Part shown: piece after piece, positions 3,910 to 52,401 of the stretch
Numbering within the stretch: position 1 is the stretch's first letter
Layout: each line of letters starts with the position of its first letter
Assembly (NCBI GenBank): GCA_964555845.1
Contig: CAZKUA010000006.1
Span: 8,215 to 72,214, forward strand
Origin: an uncultured Candidatus Peribacteria bacterium
GTDB lineage: Bacteria; Patescibacteriota; Gracilibacteria; BD1-5; UBA2023
Length of the DNA: 64,000 nt
Direction of reading: 5' to 3'
Program-made: the position numbers and the translations under genes
Notes under the pieces: generated by a model
What the model was told of the DNA's origin: nothing
What the model saw: the letters and a program-made list of their open reading frames with translations, nothing else
Databases searched by the model: none

Positions 3910-4821
3910 ATGGTAAATAAAAAACCGGGGAATAATGGGAATTTAGGCGATGTTACTTGAGTAAATCAAGAATTATTAAATGCAGTAGAAGCCGAACAAA
4001 ATAAAACTGCTTTATTAATTCAGGATTTATTAAAAATGGCTGAAGATTATGAGAAAAGTATTTCTGAATCTACCGCACAAACTGCCGAACAAGTAGAAAA
4101 AACCAAGAAAACGGTGGAATTACTGCTTGATTTATCTGCAAAAATAACCAATCCAGACAATGATATTTGTGCTGATATTAGTAGTCAATCACTTCATGTA
4201 ATTGGAGAAGCAATCAAAAATCAGCAGTTTTTTGCATCTCAACTTATAGAAAAAAATCAAGAAATTACTAATTTAAAAATACAAACACAGGAATTGACTC
4301 ATAAGGCTTTTTATGATGAACTTACTTGACTAGGAAATAGACATTTATTCAAAAAAACTTTTCTTGCATTCAAGAATGATTTTGTAGAAAAATGACAAAT
4401 ATTTTCAATGGCAATGTTTGATTTAGATGATTTTAAACAAATAAATGATCAATATTCTCATGAGGTATGAGATAAGGCTTTGAATTTTTTTAGTAATAGA
4501 CTAAGGGATTTTTTCTCTGAAAAACTTTGAGAGAAATGAATTTTATTAAGATTATGATGAGAAGAATTTGGTGTATTATCTCAGATCTGAAAAAAAGAGA
4601 TGTATAATTTAATGGAATCTTTTAGAAAAAAAGCTAGTAAAACATATGAATTAAAGCACAAAAAACCTTGAGAGCCAGAAGAAAAAGAGCAAATAAAATT
4701 AACTTTTTCTTGATGAGTAGTTGAATTTAAAGATAAATTAAGTGCAAATCAAATTCATAAAGAGTGTGGCGAAAAATTAAAAGAAGCTAAAAAGAAATGA
4801 AAAAATGTTATTATCAAATAA
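3910..4821 (+). CDS. GGDEF-domain diguanylate cyclase with coiled-coil N-terminus, 303 aa
   Basis: Motifs DELTGLGNR, FDLDDFKQINDQYSHEVGDKAL and RLGGEEFGV are present. The GG of GGEEF is tga tga at 4555-4560. I counted 13 in-frame TGA. Confidence 0.85.
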
Positions 4822-4892
4822 TTTTTTTGATTTTAAAAATTTGACAATAAAGAGAAAACTTATACTCTAAATAAAAATTTAATAAAATATTT

Positions 4893-5900
4893 ATGCCTTC
4901 CTCCCATAAAAAAACACATGGATTATTTGCTGTAACAGTCGCTATAATCTGAAATTTTATCATAATGATTCTTAAATTTATCTGATTTTTTTTATCAGGC
5001 TCTGGAGTTTTATTTTCTGAAGCAATTCATAGTGTCGCTGATACTTCAAACCAAGTCTTGCTTATGGTGGGACTCAAAAAATCCAGAAAAAAAGCAGATG
5101 CGAATTTCTCTTATTGATATTGAAAAGAAAGATTTTTCCGGGCGATTTTATCAGCTTGTGGGATATTTTTTATATGAGCCGGGGTTACCGTTTACCACTC
5201 CATAGAAAATTTCCTACATCCAATTATTATTGAAAATTCATTTTATGTTTTAATAATTTTAGCTATATCTTTTATTGTAGAATCTATAACTTTATTGATA
5301 GCTATAATTTCAGTTTATGATAGGCAAGACTGATTACTAGAAAGTATAAAAGAGGCAGATAATGCTTCAAAAGCAGTAATACTTGAAGATTCAGTTGCTG
5401 TATTTTGAGTTTTAATAGCTTTTGTGAGTATTTTACTTACAAATTTAACAGGAAAAACTTATTTTGATTCAATTTGATCTTTGATAATTTGAATTTTGCT
5501 TTGAATTGTGGCAATTATTTTGATTATGGAAAATAAAAGTTATCTTCTTGGAAGAGGAATAGATGAGGAATTAAAAGAAGATATAATTGAAACCATAAAA
5601 ACAGATAATTTAATAGAAAAAATTATAGATTTTAAATCAGAAGTAATCGATATAGATTGTTATATTATCAAAGTAGAAGCAGAATTTAATGGATCTTCAC
5701 TGATGAGAGAAATAAATCATAATTGATTTTTTCAAGATGAGTATGAATATATAAAAGAAGATTACAATGAATTTTTAAAATTTTGTGTAGATTATGCTGA
5801 TAGAATTCCTAGAATTATTGGTAAAAGAATTGACGCCCTAGAAAAAAATATCAAAGAAAAACATCCAGAAATTAAACATATTGATATTGAGTTGAATTAG
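4893..5900 (+). CDS. Cation diffusion facilitator (CDF) family metal efflux transporter, 335 aa
   Basis: About six TM helices, the motif SEAIHSVADTSNQ, and a C-terminal cytoplasmic domain. The frame matches track ORF 5508-5726. Confidence 0.8.
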
Positions 5901-6091: not shown

Positions 6092-7666
6092 ATGAAGAAT
6101 CAAGGGAATTTGATACCCATTAATGATTCAAAAACAAGTAGTTTTCTCTCCATAACCCAGACAATACTTTTGTGGTCTTTTTTGATTGTAGGTTTTGCTG
6201 GATGGGAGGCATACCACGCTTATCAATTTAATATAGAAAATGCCCTGGACGTCGCTCGTGATAGCCATAATAAAGATTTGGCTTACAGGCGTTGGGGAAA
6301 TGAGATTGGTGGGGTTTATGTACAAGTTACAGAAAAAACCCAACCAAATCCACTGCTTTCCGGGGTTCCAGAAAGGGATATTATAACTCCTTCTGGCAAG
6401 CATCTTACATTAATGAATCCTGCTTATATGATTCGTAAAGTGTATGATGCAAACAAGGAAAGTTATGGTCTTTTGGGTCACATAACTAGCCTCAATCCAA
6501 TTCGTAAGGAGAATGCTCCCGATAGCTGGGAAACAACTGTTTTACAAAAGTTTGAAAAAGGCGATATTAAGGAATATTTCTCTAAAGAATATATTGGAAA
6601 TGAGGAATATCTCCGGTATATGCGACCAATATTGGTTGATACAAAATGCCTCAAATGTCATGCAAAACAAGGATACAAAGCTGGAGATATTCGTGGTGGC
6701 ACAAGCATTTCTGTACCATTAAAGCCATATAAACTCAAATTCCTTAAGAATTTATTTTGGATAATCTCCCTTTATGGGATAATTCTGGTATTGGGTATAA
6801 TGTACATAACATTGTGTCATAAAAAATCTCTGCAAAATACCAGAATTCGCAAGGAATTTGAACAAAAACAGCAAAAACTCGAAGAAAGACTTCATAAAAT
6901 CCAAAAGCTCGAAAGTCTTGGGGTTTTGGCTGGAGGCATAGCTCATGATTTCAATAATATTTTGATGGTAATTTATGGGAATTGTGATATGATTACTATG
7001 CATCCAGATCCATCACTCACAAGTGAACGAGTTTGTCAGATAAGGCATGCTGCAAAGCGAGCATCTGAAATTTGTAAAAATATGCTTGCCTGTACTGGTA
7101 AGGGTTCAATTAAGAAAAAAAAGATAGATTTGGTGAGGCTGGTTAATGACACTATTGATCTTCTGAAGCCAAAGATAGAGATTAACATTTCTCTTAATTT
7201 CACTCAAAATCCAGAGCCACTTTACACTAACGGCGATATTGATCAGATTCAAGAAGTAATTATGAATTTGATTATAAATGCTATAGAGGCCATTGGTGAG
7301 AATAAGGGCCAAATTACCGTAAGACTCACCCAAAATGGTTTTTCGGGTAAAGACTATTTTGAAGAAGATATTTCGCCCGAGAAATATATATGTATGGAAG
7401 TATCAGACACAGGATGTGGAATGGATGAAGAAGCTCAAAAACGCATCTTTGAACCATTCTATACTACCAAATTCACAGGCCGGGGACTTGGAATATCTGC
7501 AACACTTGGAATTATTAAGCTGCATAATGGCACTTTACAGTTGCTTAGTAGACCAGGTGTTGGCACGACCTTCAGGATTTATCTTCCTGCTTTACAAGAA
7601 GATGAAAAACTTGTGGTCAAGACTAATTCTATAGTGGAGTCAAAGTCCAACAAAAAAATCAAATAA
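6092..7666 (+). CDS. Sensor histidine kinase: N-terminal TM, periplasmic DUF3365-like domain with c-type heme motif CLKCH, TM, HisKA (AHDFNN), HATPase_c; 524 aa
   Basis: Intact ORF even in the standard code, with no in-frame TGA. By my count all 38 Gly are GGN. Visibly higher G+C than the flanks; TAA stop. Confidence 0.9.
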   Translation: MKNQGNLIPINDSKTSSFLSITQTILLWSFLIVGFAGWEAYHAYQFNIENALDVARDSHNKDLAYRRWGNEIGGVYVQVTEKTQPNPLLSGVPERDIITPSGKHLTLMNPAYMIRKVYDANKESYGLLGHITSLNPIRKENAPDSWETTVLQKFEKGDIKEYFSKEYIGNEEYLRYMRPILVDTKCLKCHAKQGYKAGDIRGGTSISVPLKPYKLKFLKNLFWIISLYGIILVLGIMYITLCHKKSLQNTRIRKEFEQKQQKLEERLHKIQKLESLGVLAGGIAHDFNNILMVIYGNCDMITMHPDPSLTSERVCQIRHAAKRASEICKNMLACTGKGSIKKKKIDLVRLVNDTIDLLKPKIEINISLNFTQNPEPLYTNGDIDQIQEVIMNLIINAIEAIGENKGQITVRLTQNGFSGKDYFEEDISPEKYICMEVSDTGCGMDEEAQKRIFEPFYTTKFTGRGLGISATLGIIKLHNGTLQLLSRPGVGTTFRIYLPALQEDEKLVVKTNSIVESKSNKKIK

Positions 7667-7718: not shown

Positions 7719-8630
7719 TTATCAAATATTATTTCAAGAATTATTTCAGACATAATAATAAGCATATCCTGTAAATCCATCTTTTACACTTCAGCCTGGA
7801 ATATTTTTAAATTTTCAATAATAAAATCAATCTTTCGTTACAATTTCTACATGTCCATAATCTCTTCTTGCTCAACTTCAATATCATTTATTATAAACAA
7901 GAATTGCTCCGGGATTAGCCTCACGAGGATCTGAAATTCGTACTTTAATAAAATCAGAACGGTTTTCTAAAAATTCATCCCATTTATGTCAGTCTCTTCA
8001 ATTTTCAGGAAGTCATTTTATTCAAAAGGCAATTAAAGCATCTCATACACTTGCCCCACAGGCATTTCGCCCCTTTGCTTTGTATCTTTCTTTTACTATA
8101 AAATCCGATAAAGAAGTACAACTATAGGTATTTTTAGAATTTGAAATGGATTTTTTTACCTCAATTTTATTTATTGCTTGGTTATTTATATTACTTTGAT
8201 TACCAAATAAAACTGTTTGAGTTTCTTTATCACAAATTCAAGTTGGTAATAATTTATTTTCCTTTTGAAATCTTATAAGAGTTTCAATAGTTTTTCTTCA
8301 AAAAATATTATCTTCTTTTAAATTTGTTTTTAGTTTTTGATTTAATGAAGCTTGTAAATCTTTTATGGTTTTATTAATTACACCAAGCTGTTTTATGTTT
8401 CTATTTTCAAAATCAGTTTCTATAGAATTATGAAGCTCTTGTTTTTTATTTTGAGTTTCAAATATTACATCTTGTTTTTCTGGAATATAAATTTGTAAAT
8501 CTCAAGCAGTTTGGGAAGTATTTTTTACTTCTTCCTTAGATACTTCTTGTTTTTCCTCTTTTTTTGGCATTCAAATTGCAAATTTCTCATAATTATAGTG
8601 ACTTCAATCATTTAATCCTATTCTTACCAT
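7719..8630 (-). CDS. Cell-wall hydrolase: peptidoglycan-binding repeat plus CHAP/NlpC-P60-like cysteine peptidase, 303 aa
   Basis: TIETLIRFQKENKLLPTGICDKETQ is PG_binding-like. NACGASVGDAL (Cys) and YGHVEIV (His) fit a CHAP peptidase. The frame was checked at 8045. Confidence 0.65.
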
Positions 8631-16549: not shown

Positions 16550-18374
16550 TATGTGTTGAATTTTTTGATATATTTGAAATAAAAATGCGACAAGCAAGTT
16601 AATCCATTGACTTGAGAAACTCGAATATAGATGATATGATTCATCGGGTTTTGTTGTTGGAAAAGATTGAGATTTGAAATTAATTAAATCAGTTGGAAAA
16701 GTTTCAAATTTAAGTGAAAAAAGTACAAATACATTAGCAGAAAATGAGACTTTTTCTTATGGAATAGCTCATACTCGCTGGGCAACTCACGGAGGAGTGA
16801 CAGAGTTTAATTGTCATCCTCATTATTCAGAAAATGAACGCATTTTTCTTGTTCATAATTGAATTATAGAAAATTATCGTGAGCTAAAAGATGAGCTTCT
16901 TAAGAAATGATATAGTTTTTATGGGGAGACAGATTCTGAAGTTGTTGCTAAGTTAATCGAAGAAAATTGGGATCAAAATTTACTTAAAACTGTTGAAAAA
17001 GTATTACCAATACTCGAGTGAGCTTATGCATTTTTATTTATTTCAAGAGATAATCCAGATGAAATTATTTGAGTAAAATATTGAAGTCCTTTGGTTTTTG
17101 GATATTCAAAAGATAAGAGTGAATTTTATTTTTCTTCTGATACTCAAGCTCTAGCTTGAATTGTGGATGATGTAATTTTTCTTGATGATGGTGAGTTAGT
17201 TTATATCAAAAATAATGATTATACAATAAAAAGTGAGTGAAAATTAATTTCAAAATCAGCCGAGAAAATTGATGTTGCAAGCTTAAAGGCAGAGAAATGA
17301 GATTTTAAACATTTTATGTTAAAAGAAATTTTTGAACAACCAAAAGTATTAGAAGATGTTTTTAGATGAAGAATAGATTTTACTAATTCTCGCCTTAATG
17401 CTGCCGCTTTTGAGGAGCTTGATAAACATGTTTTTTCTAAAATTACTTTCGTTGCCTGTGGAACAAGTTATCACGCTGGATGGCTCGGGACTTATTGGTT
17501 TGAGGATTTGGCAGATATGGAATCTCGCGTGGAAGTTGCGAGTGAATTTGAATACAAAAATATTAAAATAGACTCAGAAACTCTCTATGTTTTTATCTCT
17601 CAATCAGGAGAAACTGCCGATTCTATCGAGCCTCTTAAATATTTGAAATCTAAATGAGCTTCAACTTTTTGAATTGTAAATGTGGTAGGTTCAACCATTT
17701 CAAGACTTACTGATTTTGGTCTTTTTACCAGAGCTGGGACAGAGGTTTGAGTGGCATCTACTAAGGCTTTTACAGCTCAAATATGCACAATTTTGCTTCT
17801 TGCTCTTTATTTTGGAGAGAAAAATTGAAATCTTTCAAGACAAAAATACAGACAAATTATCCAAGAATTACATTCTATTCCAGAGAAAATAAATGAACTT
17901 TTATCAACTTCTGATAATATTAGAAATATAGCAGAAAATATTAAAAATTATAAACAATTTTTCTTTTTAGGAAGACATCTGGAGCTTGCTATAGCATATG
18001 AGTCAAGCCTAAAATTCAAAGAAATTTCATATCTTAATTCTCAAGCACTCCCAAGTGGAGAGCTTAAACATTGATCTCTTGCTTTAGTTGATGAGGATTT
18101 TCCATCTATGATATTTATGCCAAATGATTTTTTATATGAAAAAAATCTCTCATCTGTCCAAGAAGTAAAAGCAAGAAAATGAGAAATTCTAGCAATTTCC
18201 GACAAAAATGTAGATAGTGCCACTTGGAATATTTCAATTCCACAAACTCTAGAAGAGCTATATCCATTCCTCACAGCAATTGCCGGGCAACTAGTGGCTT
18301 ACCATACAGCAGACTTACTTTATAGAAATATTGATAAACCTCGTAATCTCGCAAAAAGTGTAACTGTGAAATAA
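16550..18374 (+). CDS. glmS: Glutamine--fructose-6-phosphate aminotransferase carrying an apparent +1 frameshift near codon 24
   Basis: [24 protein letters not shown] is read in the frame of 16550. EYRGYDSSG...LAKSVTVK* is read one frame over, matching track ORF 16674. The total of 1825 nt is not divisible by 3. Confidence 0.85.
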
Positions 18375-32656: not shown

Positions 32657-32684
32657 TTGACTCTCCAAAAATATGGACTACAAT
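32657..32684 (+). promoter_or_regulatory. Sigma70-type promoter for the first tail-fibre-like gene
   Basis: TTGACT, 16-nt spacer, TACAAT. Confidence 0.55.
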
Positions 32685-32720
32685 ACTCCAGATTTAATTT
32701 ACAATTTAATCTATAATTTT

Positions 32721-33740
32721 ATGAAAAAATTTAAAAAACCTATTTTATCAGCTGTAGTATTTTTCTCTACACTTATAGTATTATCAGTTTGATATGCCAC
32801 ATGGAATAATACCATGACTACAGTATGAACAGGAAGTGGTCTAACAGCAAATTCCTGGAATGCTATGGTAGATAATATCAATGATTTAAGCTCTAGATCT
32901 TGGTGACTTAACTGATTAGCTAGTTATTATACTGCTTGAAATGTCGGGATTGGTACGACGAGTCCTAGTTCAAAATTACATATTAGTGGCTCAGATACAG
33001 GAGTTGGTATTTTTGGAACTACTAGATCTAAAATGAATTTATGGACTACTAACCAGCCTGGTTGGCAGATAGAGGTTTGAGATGCTACTGGTAATCAAAA
33101 TGCAGGTGATCTTGGTTTTATAGAATCTTGAGTTGCTGCCAGACTAGTTTTAGCAAAAGGTGGTAATGTTGGAATTTGAACAACTGCTCCTGCTGAAAAA
33201 TTACAAGTAAATGGAAATATTCTCGCGGCAAACAATACTTCTATTTGAATTCATCCAACATATCCAACATTTTCAGCATGGTGGAGAAAATGAAGTGATT
33301 ATAGCATGTTAACAGATTGAATAGGTACATATATTAATGCTCCTTCGGCTGGTGGAGGTGTTTATCTTCGAGTTGCTAATGCTGATAGAATGATTATTTA
33401 TTCAAATTGAAATGCATGGCTTGCTGGTACTCTTACTCAAGCGTCAGATATTCGTTTAAAAAAAGAAATTTCTCAAATAGAAAATCCATTAGAAAAAATT
33501 TCTCAACTTGAAGGAGTTACTTATTTTTGGAAAGATAATACAAAAGATGCTAAACGTCAAATTGGTGTAATTGCTCAAGATGTAGAAAAAGTTTTTCCAG
33601 AAACTGTGAATACTGATGAAAAATGAATGAAATCTGTTGCATATGGGAATTTAGTTGCACCCCTTATTGAGGCAATAAAAGAACTAAAATCTCAAAATGA
33701 TAAATTGGAGGAGAGAATTAGATTATTGGAGAATAAATAA
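32721..33740 (+). CDS. Tail-fibre-like surface protein with C-terminal peptidase S74 intramolecular chaperone domain, 339 aa
   Basis: N-terminal hydrophobic anchor and Gly-rich beta repeats (NVGIGTT). The C-terminus reads SDIRLKKEI...LEGVTYFWKD...IGVIAQDVEKVFPETV...VAYGNLVAPLIEAIKEL. Confidence 0.8.
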
Positions 33741-37225: not shown

Positions 37226-38260
37226 ATGAAGCTCCCAAAAAATTTATATTCCCGCCTAACTCTAATAACTGTAGCCACAGTTGTAACTTGATATGCTATA
37301 ATATATGCATACACAAATTTACCAACTCAGGAATCTTGAAATCCTCTTACAAAAACTATTTGGAATGATGTAGTAAATAAAATAAATGATATCTGAACAA
37401 GAACTGACTGAATTACCAGTAGTGTTTGAGGAAAAGTATGAGTTTGAACTACAAATCCATATGCTAAAATACATTCAATGTGACAAACATTTATGATGTG
37501 ATCTACGCCTGACTTAAATTGGTGATCAGTTTGAAGTGTATTCCAATGAGAATTCTGAGCCGCAAGCGGAAATACCTATACAAAATTAGAATCATTTGTG
37601 AACTGAGGATCTGGGTACGGTGATTTAGTTTTAAATCCAGGATGATGAAATGTTAATATTGGTCCATATGAATTATGAGGAAGTAAATTAAAAATTGTAC
37701 AACCTACAGATAATCTCCGGACAGCTTTAATAAAAAGCACTAGTCCAACTACATGATTAAATTTCTGATTAACAGTTAGAGCGTGAACAAATTCAGCTGA
37801 TTCAGGATTTTTAGTTATGGATAAAAATTCAACTGTATATCAATTTTATGTTAGATGAGATGGTAATGTTTGAATTTGAACAAATAATCCTTGAACAGAT
37901 AAGCTTTATGTTAACTGAACTGCTAGAGGAACTTCATGGACAAATATATCAGATCAAAGATATAAAAAGAATATAACTCCAATAAATAATTCTCTAGATA
38001 AAGTATTAAAACTTAATTGAGTAACTTTTGATTGGAGAGTCGATGAATTTAAGAATAAAAATTTCCCAGAATGAAAACAGGTTTGATTTATAGCCCAAGA
38101 AGTGGAAAAAGTAATCCCTGAAGTTGTAACAACTGATGGAGAATGATATAAATGAGTAGAATATGCGAATATTACTGCATTACTTGTAAATGCAATAAAA
38201 GAACAACAAAAGCAAATTGAGGAATTAAAAAGCGAGATAAGGGAATTTAAAAATAAATAA
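37226..38260 (+). CDS. Tail-fibre-like surface protein with S74 chaperone domain, paralog of 32721-33740; 344 aa
   Basis: SDQRYKKNI...LNGVTFDWR...VGFIAQEVEKVIPEVV...VEYANITALLVNAIKE. It shares the N-terminal WN..V..IND motif with its paralog. Confidence 0.8.
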
Positions 38261-38311: not shown

Positions 38312-38815
38312 TTATTTACTCATCATCGGACAATTTCCGCTATTTCCACCTCTCATTCATCCTCTTCCTCCACCTCTTTTTCCTCACATTTTACCTCACA
38401 TTCCACCTTGACCAAAAGCTCACATTTTAGCTGTAATAGCTCTATCTTGGATAGATTTTACAGTTGCGGCATCAGTTGATGTCATTGTTACCTTTGTTCC
38501 ATTAGCTAATTTTTCTCTTTTTACAGTAATTAGAGAATTAGCTGGAGTTTTTGCTTGATTTTTATCAAACATTGATTGCATATGAGCTAAAGTATCTGCA
38601 TCAGTTGTTGTCATAGTTATTTCAACCCCATTTGCAATATTGTTCACAGTTCTTGTGATTTTAGATGCATATAAGCCTTGATTAACTGCTCCCGAATTAT
38701 TTCTTTGAGCAAAATTTCCTCCTGATGACATTTGTCATCTTGCCGCGTATGTAGATGATACAAGTATTGCACCAAGTGCTACAACTCAAGCGGTAATTAA
38801 AAGTGCTTTTTTCAT
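38312..38815 (-). CDS. Secreted protein with internal duplication and a Gly/Met/Arg-rich C-terminal tail, 167 aa
   Basis: Signal peptide MKKALLITAGVVALGAILVSSTYA, two copies of V.ITMT.TDA.T, and the tail GQGGMGGKMGGKRGGGRGGMRGG, which is rich in TGA. Confidence 0.6.
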
Positions 38816-38884
38816 AATATATAAAATTAATAATAAATAAAAGTTTAAATTCAAGCTTGACCGAGAGATAAGGAAGGGCATTCT

Positions 38885-48749: not shown

Positions 48750-49712
48750 ATGTTTGATTTTATACAAATTTTTGCTGATTATATTTCTTATTCTTTGCTC
48801 AAACTTGATGGTTCTCATCTTGGAGAAGCACTGAATTTTTTCATTTATGATAGTATTAAGATTTTTTTCTTGATGATTTTTATTGTTCATTTAATGACTT
48901 TAATAAATCATTTCTTACCGATTGAAAAAATCAGAGATTTCTTGGCAAAAAACAAGATGTTTTGATTTGATTATTTACTTTCTGCTCTATTTTGAGCTGT
49001 AACTCCATTTTGTACTTGCTCAAGTATTCCAATGTTTGTTGGATTCTTGAAGGCTGGAATTCCTCTTGGAATCACATTTACCTTCCTCATTACATCACCC
49101 CTTATCAATGAAGTCGCGGTTGCCTTGTTTATAGGACTTTTTGGACTTAAAATCACAGCTATTTATGTAGCCTCTTGAATGTTTCTTTGAATGTTTTGAG
49201 GTTTTATAATTGGGAAATTAAAAATGGAATGAGAAGTGGCAGAATTTATTTGGAAAAATAAATGAGTCCCACCTGAAGTAAAAGAAGAAACCAGAAAATG
49301 GAATAAATTTTTAAGAGAAGTAAGTAAGGACAGTTTTTCTCTTGTCTGGAAAATTATGCCCTATGTTTTACTTGGAGTAGCTATTTGATGACTAATTCAC
49401 GGGTTTGTTCCAACCGGATTTTTTGAAAAATATATCACCAAATCAAATCCTTTCGCAGTACCAATCTCAGTAATTCTAGGGATACCGATGTATGCCAATG
49501 CTACAAGTATTCTTCCTATAATTCAAGCTCTTATCACGAAATGAATTCCCCTCGGAACCGGACTTGCCTTTATGATGGCGGTTGTTGGACTTAGTTTACC
49601 AGAATTTTTGATTTTAAAGAAAGTTATGAGCATGAAATTACTCCTTACATTCTTCGGAATCGTCGGATTTTTTATGATTTTACTTGGGTATTTTTTTAAT
49701 GCCGTGATGTAA
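48750..49712 (+). CDS. Predicted permease (ArsP_1/DUF318-like), 320 aa
   Basis: The [16 protein letters not shown] motif and multiple TM helices. Confidence 0.7.
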
Positions 49713-49713
49713 A

Positions 49714-49744
49714 AAATCCCACAGGCGCTCAGCCCATGGGATTT
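49714..49744. terminator. Candidate hairpin between convergent genes
   Basis: aaatccca-15 nt-tgggattt followed by a T run. Confidence 0.45.
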
Positions 49745-49772
49745 CAAATTTTTTTATCATACGAGTGGAAAT

Positions 49773-50639
49773 CTAACTTCAGATCCCACTCACAATAATT
49801 TTGATGTCTTCGGACCTAAGGAGACCGAAACCAAGTTGGTTCAAAATCTCCATATTGGCTAGTTCCAGAGCGTCCATTCTGGATATTCCTGTCCTTATAT
49901 TTATTTGATGAAAATCTCCTTGTCCCAATATCGCCTTGTAGGCCTCATGGTTTTGAGGTCGAAATTCGACATGGAGATTCCCGTCGAAATGCTCTTCCTT
50001 TCTCCATCCTGATTCTTCAGAGCTGAAGATACTGATTTTGGCAGGAATTTCAGCCGGTTCCAGTTTTGCGACCGGGAAATACAAATCTTCCAGAGTCTTG
50101 AATCCCAAGGGAACGATTACTTCCTCTGTTGTCACTTTACCATCCGCTTTTGAAAACCACACAAAATTGGGATCAGGCTTGGATAAGCTTGAAGATATCG
50201 ACCAGGTATTGATAGTTAAGGCAATAACAACAAACACTGGAAGATATTTCCTGTGTTTATCCCACAAATATCCTCCGAAAATTGCAAAGAGAGCCATGAG
50301 ACAAAAGCTAAATCCTACTATTGTAATAACAGGACCATTCCCAAAAATAACACCGCAAATAGAAATAATAATACCAATGATACCAAGAAAAAGAGTTTCT
50401 CCACTATTAGGCAATGATAGTACAAAAATGAAAACCCCGATAATGAGATTGGTTAAAACCAACCTTTCTATTGATATCTGAAAATGTGGCTGGTGTAGCC
50501 CATAGTAGGCGATACCAACCAGTATTGCAGTCATCATTATTGTCAGCATTGTGGAAAGCCGATTTTCTGGCTTCCAGATAAGGTTAAGGAACGAAGAAAC
50601 AGACCATTGTGTTTTTGGTACAACATTTGTTGCTTCCAT
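49773..50639 (-). CDS. Membrane protein of unknown function (4-5 TM helices plus soluble C-terminal domain); 288 aa in table 25, 286 aa in the standard code
   Basis: Intact ORF in the standard code with no internal TGA. By my count all 22 Gly are GGN. G+C is higher than the flanks. The standard-code TGA stop (49779-49781) reads as Gly in table 25, so translation would continue to the TAG at 49773-49775. Confidence 0.75.
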
Positions 50640-50646
50640 GATTTTT

Positions 50647-50654
50647 CCCTCCTT
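50647..50654 (-). promoter_or_regulatory. Strong Shine-Dalgarno site AAGGAGGG 7 nt upstream of the ATG at 50639
   Basis: The plus strand reads ccctcctt. Confidence 0.7.
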
Positions 50655-50716
50655 GCGGGATATTTTATTTTTGTCTTGATATTTGTATTCGCTGAAAATT
50701 ATTTCCAGTAATTCTA

Positions 50717-50744
50717 CTTATAATCAAAAACATATTTTTGTCAA
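50717..50744 (-). promoter_or_regulatory. Sigma70-type promoter for the membrane-protein gene
   Basis: On the minus strand: TTGACA, 16-nt spacer, TATAAG. Confidence 0.5.
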
Positions 50745-50772
50745 TAGAAAATTTGGGATTATTTTGGTAAAT

Positions 50773-50800
50773 TTGATTTTACTCAAAAAAATATTACAAT
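50773..50800 (+). promoter_or_regulatory. Sigma70-type promoter for rubrerythrin
   Basis: TTGATT, 16-nt spacer, TACAAT. Confidence 0.5.
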
Positions 50801-50833
50801 ACCCTTGTATTTTATTTTCTAATTTTAAGAAAT

Positions 50834-51409
50834 ATGGCAAGCATTAAATGAACTCAGACAGAGAAAAATTTGTTAAAATCTTTCGCGGGGGAATCTCAGG
50901 CTAGAATGCGTTATGATTATTTTGCAAAAATTGCAAAAAGTGAATGATATGAACAAATTAGAGCATTTTTTGAAGAGACAGCACTAAACGAAAAAGAACA
51001 TGCAAAGAGATTTTTTAAATTTCTTGAATGAAGTATGGTAGAAATTACTGCTACTTATCCGGCTTGAAAAATTGGGACAACACTCGAAAATCTGGAGGCT
51101 TCGGCAAATTGAGAGAATGAGGAATGGACTTTACTTTATCCAGAATTTGCGAGAATTGCGGATGAAGAATGATTTGGAGAAATTGCGAAAGTCTGGAGAA
51201 ATATAGCACTTGTTGAGAAAGCTCACGAGACAAGATATAGAAAACTTCTTGAAAATATTAAAAATAATGAAGTTTTTGAGAAATCTGAAATAAAAAAATG
51301 GAAATGTGCGAATTGTGGATATATACATACTGGAAAATCTGCTTTAGAAGTTTGTCCAAGCTGTGATCATCCAAAATCTTACTTTGAAATTTGGGTAGAG
51401 AATTATTAA
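50834..51409 (+). CDS. rbr: Rubrerythrin, 191 aa
   Basis: Ferritin-like ExxH motifs (EKEHAKRF, EEW...E..H) and the C-terminal rubredoxin CANCGY...CPSCDHP. Confidence 0.9.
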
Positions 51410-51424
51410 AATTTAAAAAATATT

Positions 51425-51448
51425 GTCATTCCCTCGTAGGAGGGAATC
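51425..51448. repeat. GTCATTCC...GGAATC hairpin repeat copy
   Basis: gtcattccctcgtaggagggaatc. Confidence 0.8.
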
Positions 51449-51497
51449 TTCCTTGTATTTTAAAAACTTCTTTTTGTAATCTTGAACTCCACGACCT

Positions 51498-51544
51498 GTC
51501 ATTTCAAACTTTCCTACTGTCATTTCGAACAAAGTGAGAAATCC
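51498..51544. repeat. Two degenerate GTCATTTC units in direct orientation
   Basis: gtcatttcaaactttcctact followed by gtcatttcgaacaaagtgagaaatcc. Confidence 0.6.
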
Positions 51545-51626
51545 CTTTTTGATGCACACTTGGAAAACATAATTCCCAAGTTTAACTTTTCTTTAAGTTT
51601 TAGTCTCAAAAGATTTGATTTAAAGG

Positions 51627-51672
51627 GATTCCTCGTTATCACTCGGAATGACAGAAGGGAACTCGAAATGAC
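51627..51672. repeat. Inverted copies of the same unit facing 51498-51544
   Basis: gattcctcgttatcactcggaatgac and ggaactcgaaatgac. Confidence 0.6.
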
Positions 51673-51696
51673 AAGTGGGATGCGAGGGATTTTTTG

Positions 51697-52401
51697 TTAT
51701 CTCCAGTTCATCATTCATCTTCCTCATCTTCATCACATCATTCCTCCTCACATACCAGCGGAATTTATAATTTCAGTTGCTTGGAATTCTCAAGTTCCGG
51801 TTTTTTGTCAGATAATTCTTATTCTGTCTCAAATATTTAAGTCACCTGAGTTTGCGCTTCAAGAAAGGGTAACACTAAATTTATCTCATCTAATATTTGA
51901 AATAATGATTTTATCATTTTTAATTTCTTCAATAATACCTCACATTCTTCATTCACTTGGATTTTGCCACATTTGTTGACCGAGAGTAAAATCCTTGTAT
52001 CATCTCATATGTGAGCCCATATAATCATTCATATTGTGTCCAATCCCAAATCTATAACCTAAAAATCCTACAAAAATAAATATTGCGATAATGACTCAGA
52101 TTATACCAAAAACAGGATATTTATAACCTTTTCCAGTGTTTTGAAAATCTTTAAATGTAAAAAATCAAATTCAAAAAATTATTAAAATCCAAAGAAGTGG
52201 GAAATGAAAATAACGAAGATTAAAAAATCTCATATTTTCCCCAAAATCTGACATAAATAGCATTGTAAGAAGAATTCCTACAAATAATAGAAATATCAAA
52301 GCTCATATTTGTAAATATTTTTTTGTTATAAAGTAACTTGAAGAAGTTGGTTTTACCTCTTCTTTCTTGATTTTTCCAAGAATTTTATCTTTGATTGACA
52401 T
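51697..52401 (-). CDS. Membrane protein immediately downstream of the ECF sigma gene (anti-sigma candidate) with a Gly/Met/Arg tail, 234 aa
   Basis: Its start lies 11 nt after the sigma gene's stop. It has 4 TM helices and the tail GMGGGMMGGRGGRGMMNWR, with 5 TGA in 13 codons. Confidence 0.5.

What the first reader, a model, noticed from the sequence alone, without database searches (positions are those of the whole stretch)
49713..50760. Second TGA-free GC-richer gene, whose standard-code TGA stop would be read through under code 25
The 286-aa membrane protein is also intact in the standard code. By my count all 22 Gly are GGN. G+C is elevated, and a strong AAGGAGGG site sits 7 nt upstream of the ATG. 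In the standard code the ORF ends with TGA (49779-49781). In code 25 that codon is Gly, and translation would run two more codons (Gly-Ser) to the TAG at 49773-49775. This is what is expected when a code-11 gene lands in a code-25 host. A native-looking TTGACA-N16-TATAAG promoter lies upstream. Together with 6092-7666, this gives two independent single-gene islands with the same signature.
Basis: partly seen in the sequence, partly recalled or inferred. Interest (0 to 1): 0.75.

Follow-up and report, generated by a model that had tools for sequence, protein, structure and literature searches.

The report
Standard-code gene cassette in recoded bacterium
In a bacterium that reads the stop codon TGA as glycine, a 1-kb optional gene cassette for an unknown membrane protein, like its relatives in other Gracilibacteria, is written as if for the standard genetic code, and this looks like a stable family trait, not a fresh import.

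Summary
The window is a code-25 Gracilibacteria genome, where 57% of Gly codons are TGA. Gene 49782-50639(-) has 22 GGN and no in-frame TGA (P~7e-9). Its GC3 is 0.375 against 0.174±0.040. It ends TGA-AGT-TAG, and it is one of only two genes of 49 with a Shine-Dalgarno site.

It is a real island. A close relative (L015) has ArsP and rubrerythrin adjacent, so window 49713-50768 is a 1,056-bp indel. Its junctions recur in independent assemblies.

The reading 'a code-11 gene just landed' is only partly supported. Searches of about 15 billion proteins found only about 12 clusters. Every one with a decidable context or a source name is from code-25 Gracilibacteria. None of 215 Gly codons across the family is TGA. 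TGA sits at the homologous stop position in three lineages. The family's Shine-Dalgarno site, promoter, 5' hairpin and terminator are conserved. Substitutions show no GC decay (49 GC→AT against 48 AT→GC). Gly codons switch among GGN but never to TGA.

The best reading is a variably present, recombining accessory cassette from a code-11-compatible gene pool. That signature was described for phages predicted to infect Gracilibacteria, but no phage link was found. Protein function is unknown. By contrast, the kinase at 6092-7666 has thousands of code-11 homologs and looks like an ordinary transfer.

The parts
49713..50768 (.). The whole cassette: a 1,056-bp segment present here, and in L001/L003, between the ArsP stop codon and the rubrerythrin upstream region. 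Five bases stand in its place in the related Gracilibacteria genome L015.
   Evidence: blastn of window 49600-51800 against L015: homology runs to 49712 and resumes at 50769. The same cassette occurs at 82% nt identity in L001/L003 and in parts in L002, L004, L006 and L007.
50717..50744 (-). Promoter-like site: TTGACA (50744-50739), 16 nt, TATAAG (50722-50717).
   Evidence: Read directly. Conserved upstream of family members as TTGACA-N16/17-TATAAG or TATATT. Not listed by the consensus scan because the -10 lacks the final T. Function is inferred.
50692..50708 (-). Small stem-loop (CUGGAAA-UAA-UUUUCAG) at the predicted 5' end of the transcript.
   Evidence: Minimum-free-energy hairpin. Eight family leaders fold into a hairpin at the same place with different stem sequences (CUGGAAA/UUUUCAG, AUGAGA/UCUCAU, ACUGAA/UUCAGU), z = -2.0 to -3.7. 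Too few sequences for a formal covariation test.
50647..50654 (-). Shine-Dalgarno sequence AAGGAGGG, 7 nt before the ATG.
   Evidence: Only 2 of 49 window genes have an SD of at least 5 nt, this gene and the kinase at 6092. In the other Gracilibacteria loci the only genes with a GGAGG-core SD of at least 5 nt are family members; two other genes match only GGTGA.
49782..50639 (-). ORF of 286 sense codons with 22 GGN and no TGA. It encodes five predicted transmembrane helices (about residues 24-149) and a C-terminal alpha/beta domain (about 150-286).
   Evidence: AlphaFold2 with a 14-sequence alignment gave mean pLDDT 75.7 and about 80-90 in the C-terminal domain. No Pfam, NCBIfam, PHROGs or PADLOC family. 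No significant fold match.
49773..49781 (-). Tandem end TGA-AGT-TAG. The protein ends ...VSGI in code 11 and ...VSGIGS in code 25.
   Evidence: ATC-TGA-A(G/A)T-TAG is conserved in L001, L002, L006 and L007, and L011 has ATT-TGA-TAA. Among native window genes, a TGA within the last two codons occurs in 1 of 45.
49713..49745 (-). Intrinsic-terminator hairpin (AAAUCCCAUGGGC-UGAGC-GCCUGUGGGAUUU plus a U run). It abuts the ArsP stop codon, so it could terminate both convergent genes.
   Evidence: RNA fold -25.2 kcal/mol, z = -2.96. Homologous hairpins with a conserved GCUGAGCGC loop lie downstream of family members in L002, L004 and L006. It lies inside the indel and is absent from L015.
48750..49712 (+). 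Left flank: native ArsP-type permease gene with 10 TGA and 19 GGN. It follows TrmB-like and thioredoxin-like genes.
   Evidence: Pfam ArsP_1 at 1.6e-62. 96% nt identity to L015.
50834..51409 (+). Right flank: native rubrerythrin gene with 6 TGA and 5 GGN, transcribed divergently from the cassette.
   Evidence: Pfam Rubrerythrin at 1.3e-30. The same neighbour occurs in L001, L002 and L004/L005.

Best explanation
Window 49713-50768 is a self-contained, variably present accessory gene cassette. It comprises a promoter, a 5' stem-loop, a strong Shine-Dalgarno site, a TGA-free ORF, a TGA-AGT-TAG tandem stop and an intrinsic terminator.

It belongs to a small orphan family found so far only in code-25 Gracilibacteria. 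The whole family is written so that it reads almost the same in code 11 and code 25. In this cell UGA is read as Gly, so the product should end ...VSGIGS. In a standard-code cell it would end ...VSGI.

The product is a polytopic membrane protein. Its fast-evolving C-terminal domain is probably outside the cytoplasm.

The absence of in-frame TGA, the SD and a G+C near 0.40 are stable properties of the family. They are not the fading trace of a recent import from a standard-code cell into this genome.

The most economical cause is that these cassettes belong to, and keep exchanging alleles with, a code-11-compatible mobile gene pool of Gracilibacteria. Liu et al. 2023 described that design for phages predicted to infect Gracilibacteria. 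In this reading the cassette behaves like a phage 'moron' that sits in chromosomes.

Shown here: the anatomy, the indel, the family restriction, the TGA exclusion, the compositional stationarity and the conserved signals.

Inferred: the mobile-pool origin, the membrane topology and any function (surface, host-contact or phage-exclusion roles are guesses).
For: 1. Island status. A precise 1,056-bp presence/absence difference against L015, which otherwise keeps the TrmB-Trx-ArsP-rubrerythrin-membrane protein-sigma synteny.

2. Family restriction. Three proteins among 5.8 billion clusters and 12 clusters among 1.84 billion representatives. Source names are 'uncultured bacterium (gcode 4)' or Candidatus Gracilibacteria. 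Neighbouring genes carry in-frame TGA at every locus long enough to judge.

3. TGA exclusion.
- 0 of 215 Gly codons in 12 family members are TGA. Local backgrounds are 11-65% TGA.
- L011 has GC3 0.16, the same as its host, yet 0 of 16 Gly codons are TGA against a 65% background.
- Off-frame TGA trinucleotides occur at expected numbers, so the avoidance is at codon level.
- Ribosomal-protein genes do use TGA.

4. TGA at the homologous stop position in three lineages.
- GI|TGA with TAG or TAA 0-1 codons later in six loci.
- L009/L010 have GLE|TGA where L008 has TAA and L013 has TAG.
- The L007 tandem paralog ends GEI|TGA TGA.

5. No amelioration. 49 GC→AT against 48 AT→GC third-position changes among three orthologs. 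0 of 12 Gly synonymous switches involve TGA, against 10 of 23 in flanking genes.

6. Family G+C is about 0.39-0.42 in hosts of 0.27-0.44 G+C.

7. SD-led in SD-poor genomes. Promoter, 5' hairpin and terminator are conserved with the gene across different genomic contexts.

8. Mosaic divergence. dS is 0 over the first 45 codons and 0.3-0.8 elsewhere between the window and L001. The window's C-terminus is closer to L002 than to L001.

9. The same design (no in-frame TGA, different stop codons close together at gene ends) was reported for code-11-compatible phages predicted to infect Gracilibacteria (PMC10746230).
Against: - No family member was found on a viral contig (IMG/VR scans), in INPHARED phages or in PLSDB plasmids. 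There is no PHROGs match.
- No integrase or phage hallmark gene is next to any copy. In L014 the adjacent 312-aa protein looks by eye like a zinc-ribbon transposase but has no Pfam hit.
- Liu et al. found that integrated prophages of these phyla are TGA-rich.
- The cassette lies beside rubrerythrin in the window, L001, L002 and the outgroup L004. Its dS is similar to that of its neighbours (0.41 against 0.41; 0.74 against 0.62). This fits long vertical residence with loss in L015. Stationary TGA-free composition would then need selection in place, not a mobile pool.
- Ascertainment. Members with internal TGA would be fragmented by code-11 gene callers and could be missed. At least six members were called with code 4, and all loci were checked at the DNA level.
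- Background TGA fractions for the short loci rest on few genes.
Confidence: 0.5

Rival explanations
1. Code-neutrality is selected in place for a functional reason. The protein must be made when UGA-to-Gly decoding is unavailable or altered. Examples are infection by a standard-code phage that brings a UGA-reading release factor, attack on tRNA-Gly(UCA), or expression in a standard-code partner cell. The terminal TGA could then act as a switch between two C-termini, or between a stable and a read-through product.
For: - Stationary GC3 and strict exclusion of TGA despite synonymous Gly turnover.
- TGA exclusion even where composition is fully host-like (L011).
- Residence beside rubrerythrin in an outgroup lineage.
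- SD conserved in genomes that otherwise lack it.
- L009 has a TGA at the stop position with no backup stop for 133 codons and a terminator about 100 nt downstream.
- Standard-code-compatible phages of Gracilibacteria are predicted to exist (PMC10746230).
Against: - No evidence for any agent that disables UGA decoding in these bacteria. RF2 was not detected in Gracilibacteria genomes (PMC6851277), and Liu et al. argue that such phages need not alter host translation.
- No defence-system match (PADLOC).
- Selection for neutrality does not explain why TGA rather than TAA or TAG sits at the stop position.
- The protein's function is unknown.
Confidence: 0.2
2. One reading: a standard-code gene recently transferred from a code-11 cellular organism (host, prey or neighbour) into this genome. 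It would still carry donor composition, SD and a TGA stop.
For: - GC3 5 sd above the genome mean, no TGA, a strong SD and a TGA stop.
- Absent from L015.
- The kinase at 6092-7666 shows that such transfers occur in this genome.
Against: - No homolog in any standard-code context among about 15 billion proteins.
- Orthologs lie at the same locus in at least four Gracilibacteria lineages, with dS up to 0.75 among three of them, and in an outgroup.
- No net GC→AT decay.
- The same signature is present across family members only 21-38% identical, in code-25 hosts of 0.26-0.48 G+C.
Confidence: 0.1
3. Ancient acquisition from an unsampled standard-code lineage, or survival from before the code change, followed by spread among Gracilibacteria. 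The TGA-free state would persist by chance or weak constraint, perhaps helped by exchange with GC-richer Gracilibacteria in which TGA is a rare Gly codon.
For: - Family members in GC-richer hosts (L006, L008, L009, L013) live where TGA is only 11-30% of Gly codons.
- The window allele has G+C 0.40, like those members.
- The terminator and promoter resemble those of L004 and L006.
Against: - Even in the GC-richer hosts about 16 TGA would be expected among 79 Gly codons (my arithmetic), and none is seen.
- L011 is fully AT-rich yet TGA-free.
- In the window's clade 43% of Gly synonymous switches in flanking genes involve TGA, against 0 of 12 in the cassette.
Confidence: 0.12
4. An expression-level effect: a very highly expressed native gene that avoids TGA and prefers G/C-ending codons for translational efficiency. 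It would have nothing to do with foreign origin or code compatibility.
For: A near-consensus -35, a strong SD, a 5' stabilising hairpin and a strong terminator suggest high expression.
Against: - Ribosomal-protein and SSB genes in L011 use TGA freely (15 of 25 Gly codons).
- Rubrerythrin next door has 6 TGA of 11 Gly codons and GC3 0.20.
- Expression level does not explain the TGA at the stop position or the presence/absence polymorphism.
Confidence: 0.05
5. Assembly chimera or contamination: a fragment of a standard-code organism mis-joined into a Gracilibacteria contig.
For: The compositional jump coincides exactly with the gene.
Against: - Both junctions recur in L001/L003, and the promoter-side junction also recurs in L002 and L004/L005.
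- Flanks on both sides are TGA-recoded.
- The homologs are all in Gracilibacteria contexts.
Confidence: 0.01

Closest known systems
Code-11-compatible phages predicted to infect Gracilibacteria and Absconditabacteria (Liu, Jaffe, Chen, Bor, Banfield 2023, mBio; PMC10746230)
   Same: [quoted passage not shown] The cassette and its family show exactly this.
   Different: Those are whole phage genomes. This is a single chromosomal gene family with no phage neighbours and no viral, phage or PHROGs match. The same paper reports that integrated prophages in these phyla are TGA-rich. Stationary composition, exclusion of TGA during synonymous Gly turnover and SD use in SD-poor genomes were not part of that description.
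Horizontally acquired single-gene islands recognised by atypical composition and codon usage, followed by amelioration (general concept, from my own knowledge). The kinase at 6092-7666 is the local example.
   Same: Atypical G+C and GC3, foreign-type translation signals, and presence/absence among close relatives.
   Different: No donor-lineage homologs. There is no amelioration, and the signature is shared by distant family members inside the recipient phylum. The kinase has thousands of standard-code homologs at 37-50% identity.
Phage 'morons': autonomous transcription units with their own promoter and terminator and a composition unlike their neighbours, often encoding membrane or exclusion proteins (from my own knowledge)
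   Same: Own promoter-like site, own terminator, deviant composition, a single ORF and a membrane protein.
   Different: It is not inside a prophage, no phage genes are nearby, and no function has been shown.
Stop-codon-recoded phages that use a code different from their host's to time late-gene expression (Ivanova 2014 and Borges 2022, as cited in PMC10746230)
   Same: A mismatch between the coding style of a genetic element and the code of the cell it sits in.
   Different: Those elements use a reassigned stop as a sense codon in a standard-code host and carry suppressor tRNAs or release factors. Here a gene avoids the reassigned codon inside a recoded host and carries no such machinery.

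Membership tests
Recently transferred gene from a standard-code (code 11) cellular donor | Composition and codon usage unlike the host genome | tested here: met
   GC 0.397 against 0.275; GC3 0.375 against 0.174±0.040; 0 TGA of 22 Gly codons against 57% in the background.
Recently transferred gene from a standard-code (code 11) cellular donor | Absent from the same site in close relatives | tested here: met
   L015 has ArsP and rubrerythrin 70 bp apart, and the 1,056-bp segment is missing. It is present in L001, L002 and, in truncated form, in the outgroup L004.
Recently transferred gene from a standard-code (code 11) cellular donor | Homologs in a plausible donor lineage that uses the standard code | tested here: not met
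   Only Gracilibacteria or gcode-4 contexts among 5.8 billion clusters and 1.84 billion representatives.
Recently transferred gene from a standard-code (code 11) cellular donor | Composition drifting towards the host's (net GC→AT changes and gain of TGA-Gly) | tested here: not met
   49 GC→AT against 48 AT→GC third-position changes. 0 of 12 Gly synonymous switches involve TGA, against 10 of 23 in flanking genes. The method is three-taxon parsimony and is rough.
Code-11-compatible gene design (as in phages of Gracilibacteria, PMC10746230) | No in-frame TGA | tested here: met
   0 of 22 here and 0 of 215 across 12 family members.
Code-11-compatible gene design (as in phages of Gracilibacteria, PMC10746230) | Different stop codons close together at the gene end, so that termination works in either code | tested here: met
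   TGA-AGT-TAG here; the same or TGA-AAT-TAG or TGA-TAA in five other loci. Exception: L009/L010 have TGA with no backup stop for 133 codons.
Code-11-compatible gene design (as in phages of Gracilibacteria, PMC10746230) | Carried on a phage genome | tested here: not met
   No hit in IMG/VR contigs, INPHARED or PHROGs, and no phage genes nearby. The phage genomes of that paper themselves were not available to search.
Moron-type autonomous transcription unit | Own promoter | tested here: inconclusive
   TTGACA-N16-TATAAG lies inside the indel and is conserved in the family. The -10 lacks the canonical final T and is not listed by the scan. There are no transcript data.
Moron-type autonomous transcription unit | Own terminator | tested here: met
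   A 13-14-bp GC-rich hairpin plus a U run, -25.2 kcal/mol, z = -2.96. It is conserved in the family and lies inside the indel.
Moron-type autonomous transcription unit | Located within a prophage | tested here: not met
   The flanks are ArsP permease and rubrerythrin, in a synteny block conserved in L015.
Known protein families (Pfam, NCBIfam, PHROGs, PADLOC, PDB) | Significant sequence or fold match | tested here: not met
   No Pfam, NCBIfam or PHROGs family, and only PADLOC RTasSLATT at E=0.006 for one member. The PDB profile search gave its best E at 0.039 (a lipid phosphatase), then CrcB at E about 0.1. Foldseek gave best E 0.06 with TM 0.17 for HflK/SPFH.

The most novel reading that the evidence does not exclude
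A chromosomal gene family of code-25 bacteria is actively kept readable in both genetic codes. It has no UGA-Gly codons, an SD in an otherwise SD-less genome, and UGA placed at the stop position. The reason would be that its expression or its C-terminus depends on whether UGA is being read as glycine or as stop. It could act as a sensor or effector that still works, or only then ends correctly, when a standard-code phage or another agent changes UGA decoding. Alternatively it could be a gene meant to be expressed in a standard-code partner cell. This would make the state of the genetic code itself a regulatory or defence signal.
Probability: 0.2. Interest if true: 0.85.

Novelty: new variant of a known kind. 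Interest (0 to 1): 0.62.

Why it matters
A reassigned stop codon is usually seen as a firewall against gene flow, and foreign genes are expected to drift towards the host's code and composition. Here a gene family lives in recoded genomes yet stays written in the standard code. It has no TGA-Gly, it has TGA at the stop position, and it has a Shine-Dalgarno site that native genes lack. There is direct evidence that this state is held steady rather than decaying.

If the cause is a shared code-11-compatible mobile pool, the family marks gene traffic between Gracilibacteria chromosomes and the dual-code phages proposed in 2023. It would also be a handle for finding those elements.

If the cause is selection in place, UGA decoding state would have a biological meaning beyond coding.

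Either way the family gives a concrete, testable case. One can look for the C-terminal peptide ...VSGIGS or ...VSGI, express the cassette in E. coli, and survey TGA-free genes across code-25 genomes. For annotation, the case shows that TGA-free, SD-led genes in code-25 genomes are not all recent standard-code imports. The kinase in the same window probably is one, and this cassette probably is not.

Tried and rejected
- **Diversity-generating retroelement or hypermutation.** This was raised by the low identity inside the gene against near-identical flanks. It was rejected because dS in the gene matches the neighbours (0.41 against 0.41; 0.74 against 0.62). The drop comes from dN/dS of about 0.5 against 0.05. 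No repeat of the cassette exists in the window.
- **Motif-level avoidance of the trinucleotide TGA** (a nuclease or binding site). Rejected because off-frame TGA counts match codon-shuffle expectation.
- **High-expression codon bias.** Rejected because ribosomal-protein genes and rubrerythrin use TGA.
- **Known RNA element in the leader or at the stop region.** No Rfam hit above chance.
- **A hairpin enclosing the UGA...UAG.** It is weak and no better than shuffles (z = -1.5 to +0.4), so it was not claimed.
- **Formal covariation test of the 5' hairpin.** Abandoned because MAFFT misaligned the short arms and there are only about four independent sequence types. Per-sequence folds are reported in its place.
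- **First structure prediction.** With 3 sequences it was useless (pLDDT 42). The 14-sequence model was usable but matched nothing.
- **CrcB/Fluc-like and SPFH/HflK-like similarities.** Below significance, so not used.
- **Family-wide locus searches with the 14-sequence alignment.** They failed because no stretch is conserved enough.
- **GTDB species representatives.** They hold no family member detectable with the closest-subfamily patterns.
- **Phage, plasmid and viral-contig searches.** All negative.
- **tRNA genes.** None in the window.
Full report
**1. Host and genetic code**

The window has about 27% G+C. ORFs of at least 100 aa cover 9% of it when TGA is a stop and 87.5% when TGA is sense. 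In GlmS (16551-18374) the TGA positions mostly align to Gly in E. coli GlmS, PDB 4amv. The code is therefore 25.

The target protein is identical to NCBI HBA45034.1 (TPA, 'Patescibacteria group bacterium / Candidatus Gracilibacteria bacterium'). Apart from the two extra residues, it is also identical to EKD65847.1 of 'uncultured bacterium (gcode 4)' ACD_49C.

**2.

The gene runs from the ATG at 50639 to the TGA at 49781-49779. AGT and then TAG (49775-49773) follow. It has 286 sense codons. All 22 Gly codons are GGN and there is no internal TGA.

The other genes of the window hold 684 TGA and 509 GGN, which gives P(0 of 22) = 7e-9. G+C is 0.397 against 0.275±0.031. GC3 is 0.375 against 0.174±0.040.

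AAGGAGGG lies 7 nt before the ATG. TTGACA-N16-TATAAG lies at 50744-50717. The consensus scan does not list that site because the -10 hexamer ends in G.

Only 2 of 49 genes in the window have an SD of at least 5 nt: this gene and the kinase at 6092.

**3. It is a true island, and not an assembly artefact**

L015 is a GTDB genome, Candidatus Gracilibacteria SO_2016_LW3 bin 25. It keeps the same gene order: TrmB-like, thioredoxin-like, ArsP permease, rubrerythrin, membrane protein, ECF sigma factor, large protein. In L015 ArsP and rubrerythrin are only 70 bp apart.

Homology with the window runs to 49712 and resumes at 50769. Window 49713-50768 (1,056 bp) therefore stands where L015 has 5 bp. The segment includes the terminator, ORF, leader and promoter.

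Both junctions occur in L001 (JGI 3300029959) and L003 (Ga0074195). The promoter-side junction also occurs in L002 (SRR28401837) and in L004/L005. Flanking genes in those loci carry TGA-Gly codons.

**4. Family and distribution**

A word-indexed search of 5.8 billion clusters gave only the protein itself and two homologs at 65% and 53% identity. A full HMMER scan of 1.84 billion representatives gave 12 clusters.

I inspected the DNA of twelve members. They are the window, L001, L002, L004, L006, L007, L008, L009 (L010 carries the same allele as L009), L011, L012, L013 and L014. Every locus long enough to judge is TGA-recoded. Source names are gcode-4 uncultured bacteria or Gracilibacteria.

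No member was found in any of the following:
- IMG/VR viral contigs
- INPHARED phages or PLSDB plasmids
- GTDB species representatives, using the close-subfamily patterns

Genomic contexts differ between members:
- beside rubrerythrin (window, L001, L002, L004)
- beside ArsR-ArsP (L006)
- after PrmC (L008, L009, L013)
- among ribosomal-protein and pilus genes (L011)
- elsewhere (L007, L014)

**5. The standard-code signature belongs to the whole family**

*In-frame TGA is absent.* Across the 12 members there are 215 Gly codons and none is TGA. Local background TGA fractions range from 11% to 65%. L011 is telling. Its G+C (0.25) and GC3 (0.16) equal its host's, yet 0 of 16 Gly codons are TGA against a 65% background.

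*The avoidance is at codon level.* Off-frame TGA trinucleotides occur at the numbers expected from codon shuffles. Ribosomal-protein and SSB genes of L011 use TGA for 15 of 25 Gly codons, so expression level is not the cause.

*TGA sits at the homologous stop position in three lineages.*
- The end is ...GI|TGA followed by AGT-TAG, AAT-TAG or TAA in the window, L001, L002, L006, L007 and L011.
- L009/L010 (and ACD_78C) end ...GLE|TGA, where the close relatives L008 and L013 have TAA and TAG. No in-frame TAA or TAG follows for 133 codons, and a terminator lies about 100 nt downstream.
- A second, N-terminal-only paralog in L007 (3509-4048) ends ...GEI|TGA-TGA.
- Among native window genes, a TGA within the last two codons occurs in 1 of 45.

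*Expression signals are conserved.* The SD is conserved in the family. In the other Gracilibacteria loci, family members are the only genes with a GGAGG-core SD of at least 5 nt; two other genes match only GGTGA. The promoter-like site and a small 5' hairpin are conserved across subfamilies. The hairpin keeps its position while its stem sequence changes. The terminator, with its GCUGAGCGC loop, is conserved too.

**6. Is the signature decaying?**

The three orthologs (window, L001, L002) differ by dS 0.41-0.75. The neighbouring rubrerythrin differs by a similar amount (0.41 and 0.62). Their dN/dS is about 0.5 against 0.04-0.06 for rubrerythrin.

Polarised third-position changes are 49 GC→AT against 48 AT→GC. 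In columns with identical amino acids they are 12 against 14. GC3 of about 0.37 is therefore at its own equilibrium and is not sliding towards 0.17.

At conserved Gly positions the trio shows 12 GGN↔GGN switches and none to TGA. In window-L015 orthologs, 10 of 23 Gly switches involve TGA, which gives P~0.001. The P value would be less extreme if shared branches were counted once.

By rubrerythrin, the window, L001, L002 and L015 are about equidistant (88-94% nt). L004 is an outgroup (78%), yet it carries a truncated family member at the same place. Either L015 lost the cassette or cassettes move or are replaced at this site.

Divergence along the gene is mosaic. dS is 0 in the first 45 codons between the window and L001. 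The C-terminus of the window allele is closer to L002. This suggests allele exchange.

Family G+C clusters near 0.39-0.42 in hosts of 0.27-0.44 G+C, with exceptions at 0.25, 0.34 and 0.47.

**7. The protein**

AlphaFold2 with 14 sequences gives five transmembrane helices (about residues 24-149). A beta-rich alpha/beta domain follows (about 150-286), at pLDDT 80-90.

Two positive clusters, WKPENR before TM1 and DKHRKY between TM4 and TM5, suggest an N-in topology. That would place the C-terminal domain outside the cytoplasm. This is inference from the positive-inside rule.

No sequence family or fold match is significant. Function is unknown. N-terminal-only versions exist in L004/L005 and L007.

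**8. Comparison with the kinase**

The kinase at 6092-7666 is also TGA-free (0 of 38 Gly codons), GC-richer and SD-led. Unlike the cassette, it has thousands of homologs at 37-50% identity. They include Geomonas and Geobacter, Desulfuromonadales, Desulfobulbaceae and Nitrospirae. Its nearest full-length relatives sit in standard-code contexts rich in two-component and cytochrome-assembly genes.

The kinase fits ordinary transfer from a standard-code donor. The two islands share a signature but not an origin.

**9. Interpretation**

The data exclude an artefact. They make a recent import from a standard-code cell unlikely. They show a family-wide, maintained, standard-code-compatible design.

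The closest published parallel is the set of code-11-compatible phages predicted to infect Gracilibacteria. Those phages lack in-frame TGA and have several different stop codons close together at gene ends (PMC10746230).

TGA used interchangeably with TAA and TAG at the stop position is what drift among stop codons looks like where TGA is a stop. For that reason I favour a code-11-compatible mobile pool as the source of these cassettes and of their allele exchange (confidence about 0.5 for the whole statement).

The main rival is selection in place for code-independent expression (about 0.2). It is favoured by the apparent long residence at this locus and by the lack of any phage link.

No paper in the searched library describes TGA-free chromosomal gene families in code-25 bacteria.

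**10. Limits**

- Background TGA fractions for short loci rest on few genes.
- Family members are related, so the 215 codons are not independent.
- Gene callers using code 11 could hide members with internal TGA. At least six members were called with code 4, and all loci were read at the DNA level.
- Three-taxon parsimony is crude.
- The promoter, transcript ends, topology and function are inferred.
- The phage genomes of Liu et al. could not be searched directly.

Noticed in passing
window 6092-7666 (+): A sensor histidine kinase (Tll0287-like + HisKA + HATPase_c) with 0 TGA of 38 Gly codons, GC 0.366 and SD GGAGGT. It has thousands of standard-code homologs (Geomonas/Geobacter, Desulfuromonadales, Desulfobulbaceae, Nitrospirae) at 37-50% identity. 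The nearest full-length ones sit in standard-code contexts. It looks like an ordinary transfer from a standard-code donor.
   Followed up: partly
whole window: the 22 nt upstream of each start codon: 47 of 49 genes have no Shine-Dalgarno match of 5 nt or more. Many native genes instead show a T-rich stretch with TTAAC or TAAC about 10-18 nt before the ATG (for example 12954, 13395, 40084, 40857, 46310, 51697). This may be a different initiation or promoter signal. It was not quantified.
   Followed up: no
window 51419-51680: A second indel relative to L015. It is 262 bp just after the rubrerythrin stop, where L015 has 19 bp. It is G+C-richer and has internal repeated or inverted motifs (GTCATTTCAAAC, GTCATTTCGAAC, CTCGAAATGAC, TGTCATTCCCTCG...CGAGGGATTTT). 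There is no other copy in the window or in the fetched loci. It may be a small insertion element or a terminator remodelling.
   Followed up: partly
L009 2072-2074 and L010 (same allele; also ACD_78C00363G0001): This family member has TGA exactly where its close relatives L008 and L013 have TAA and TAG. No in-frame TAA or TAG follows for 133 codons, and an intrinsic terminator lies about 100 nt downstream. Under code 25 this predicts a long read-through or a non-stop message. NCBI holds both a 306-aa and a 439-aa version.
   Followed up: partly
L007 3509-4048 (+), just upstream of the family gene at 4373-5212: A tandem N-terminal-only paralog (profile E=3e-19). It has the same promoter style and 13 GGN, and its only TGAs are a TGA-TGA doublet at the position where short homologs end. 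Ten more codons and then TAG follow.
   Followed up: partly
L004 9956-10423 (466-kb contig Ga0074195_1000018) and L005: A 155-aa version holding the membrane domain only, in the same place beside rubrerythrin in a GC-richer (37%) Gracilibacteria genome. The family promoter, SD and terminator are all present. The gene after it encodes a Gly/Met-rich secreted protein homologous to window 38312-38881.
   Followed up: partly
window 50834-51140 against L001, and the ArsP-rubrerythrin region generally: Identity to L001 in the native flanks swings between 80% and 100% in 60-nt windows. Recombination therefore seems common across this region and not only in the cassette.
   Followed up: no
window 32673-33740 (+) and 37226-38260 (+): Two paralogous proteins, each with an N-terminal membrane anchor, Gly-rich repeats and a C-terminal Peptidase_S74 (endosialidase chaperone) domain. 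They resemble tail fibres. The second has 30 TGA codons, so it is native in coding style.
   Followed up: no
window 7719-8630 (-): This is the only native gene whose last sense codon is TGA (ATT TGA TAA). It serves as a base rate for the family's terminal TGA. The product has a peptidoglycan-binding domain.
   Followed up: no
L014 1360-2298 (-), abutting the family member at 773-1363: A 312-aa protein with an N-terminal CxxC...CxxC zinc ribbon. By eye it resembles a transposase, but it has no Pfam hit. A PIF1-type helicase follows it. This is the only hint of a mobile-element neighbour for any family member.
   Followed up: partly
family alignment A2, residues about 29-118: A weak, non-significant profile similarity of the membrane domain to CrcB/Fluc fluoride channels (E about 0.08-0.2). 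Two family members lie next to ArsP-type permease operons (window, L006). This is a lead only.
   Followed up: no
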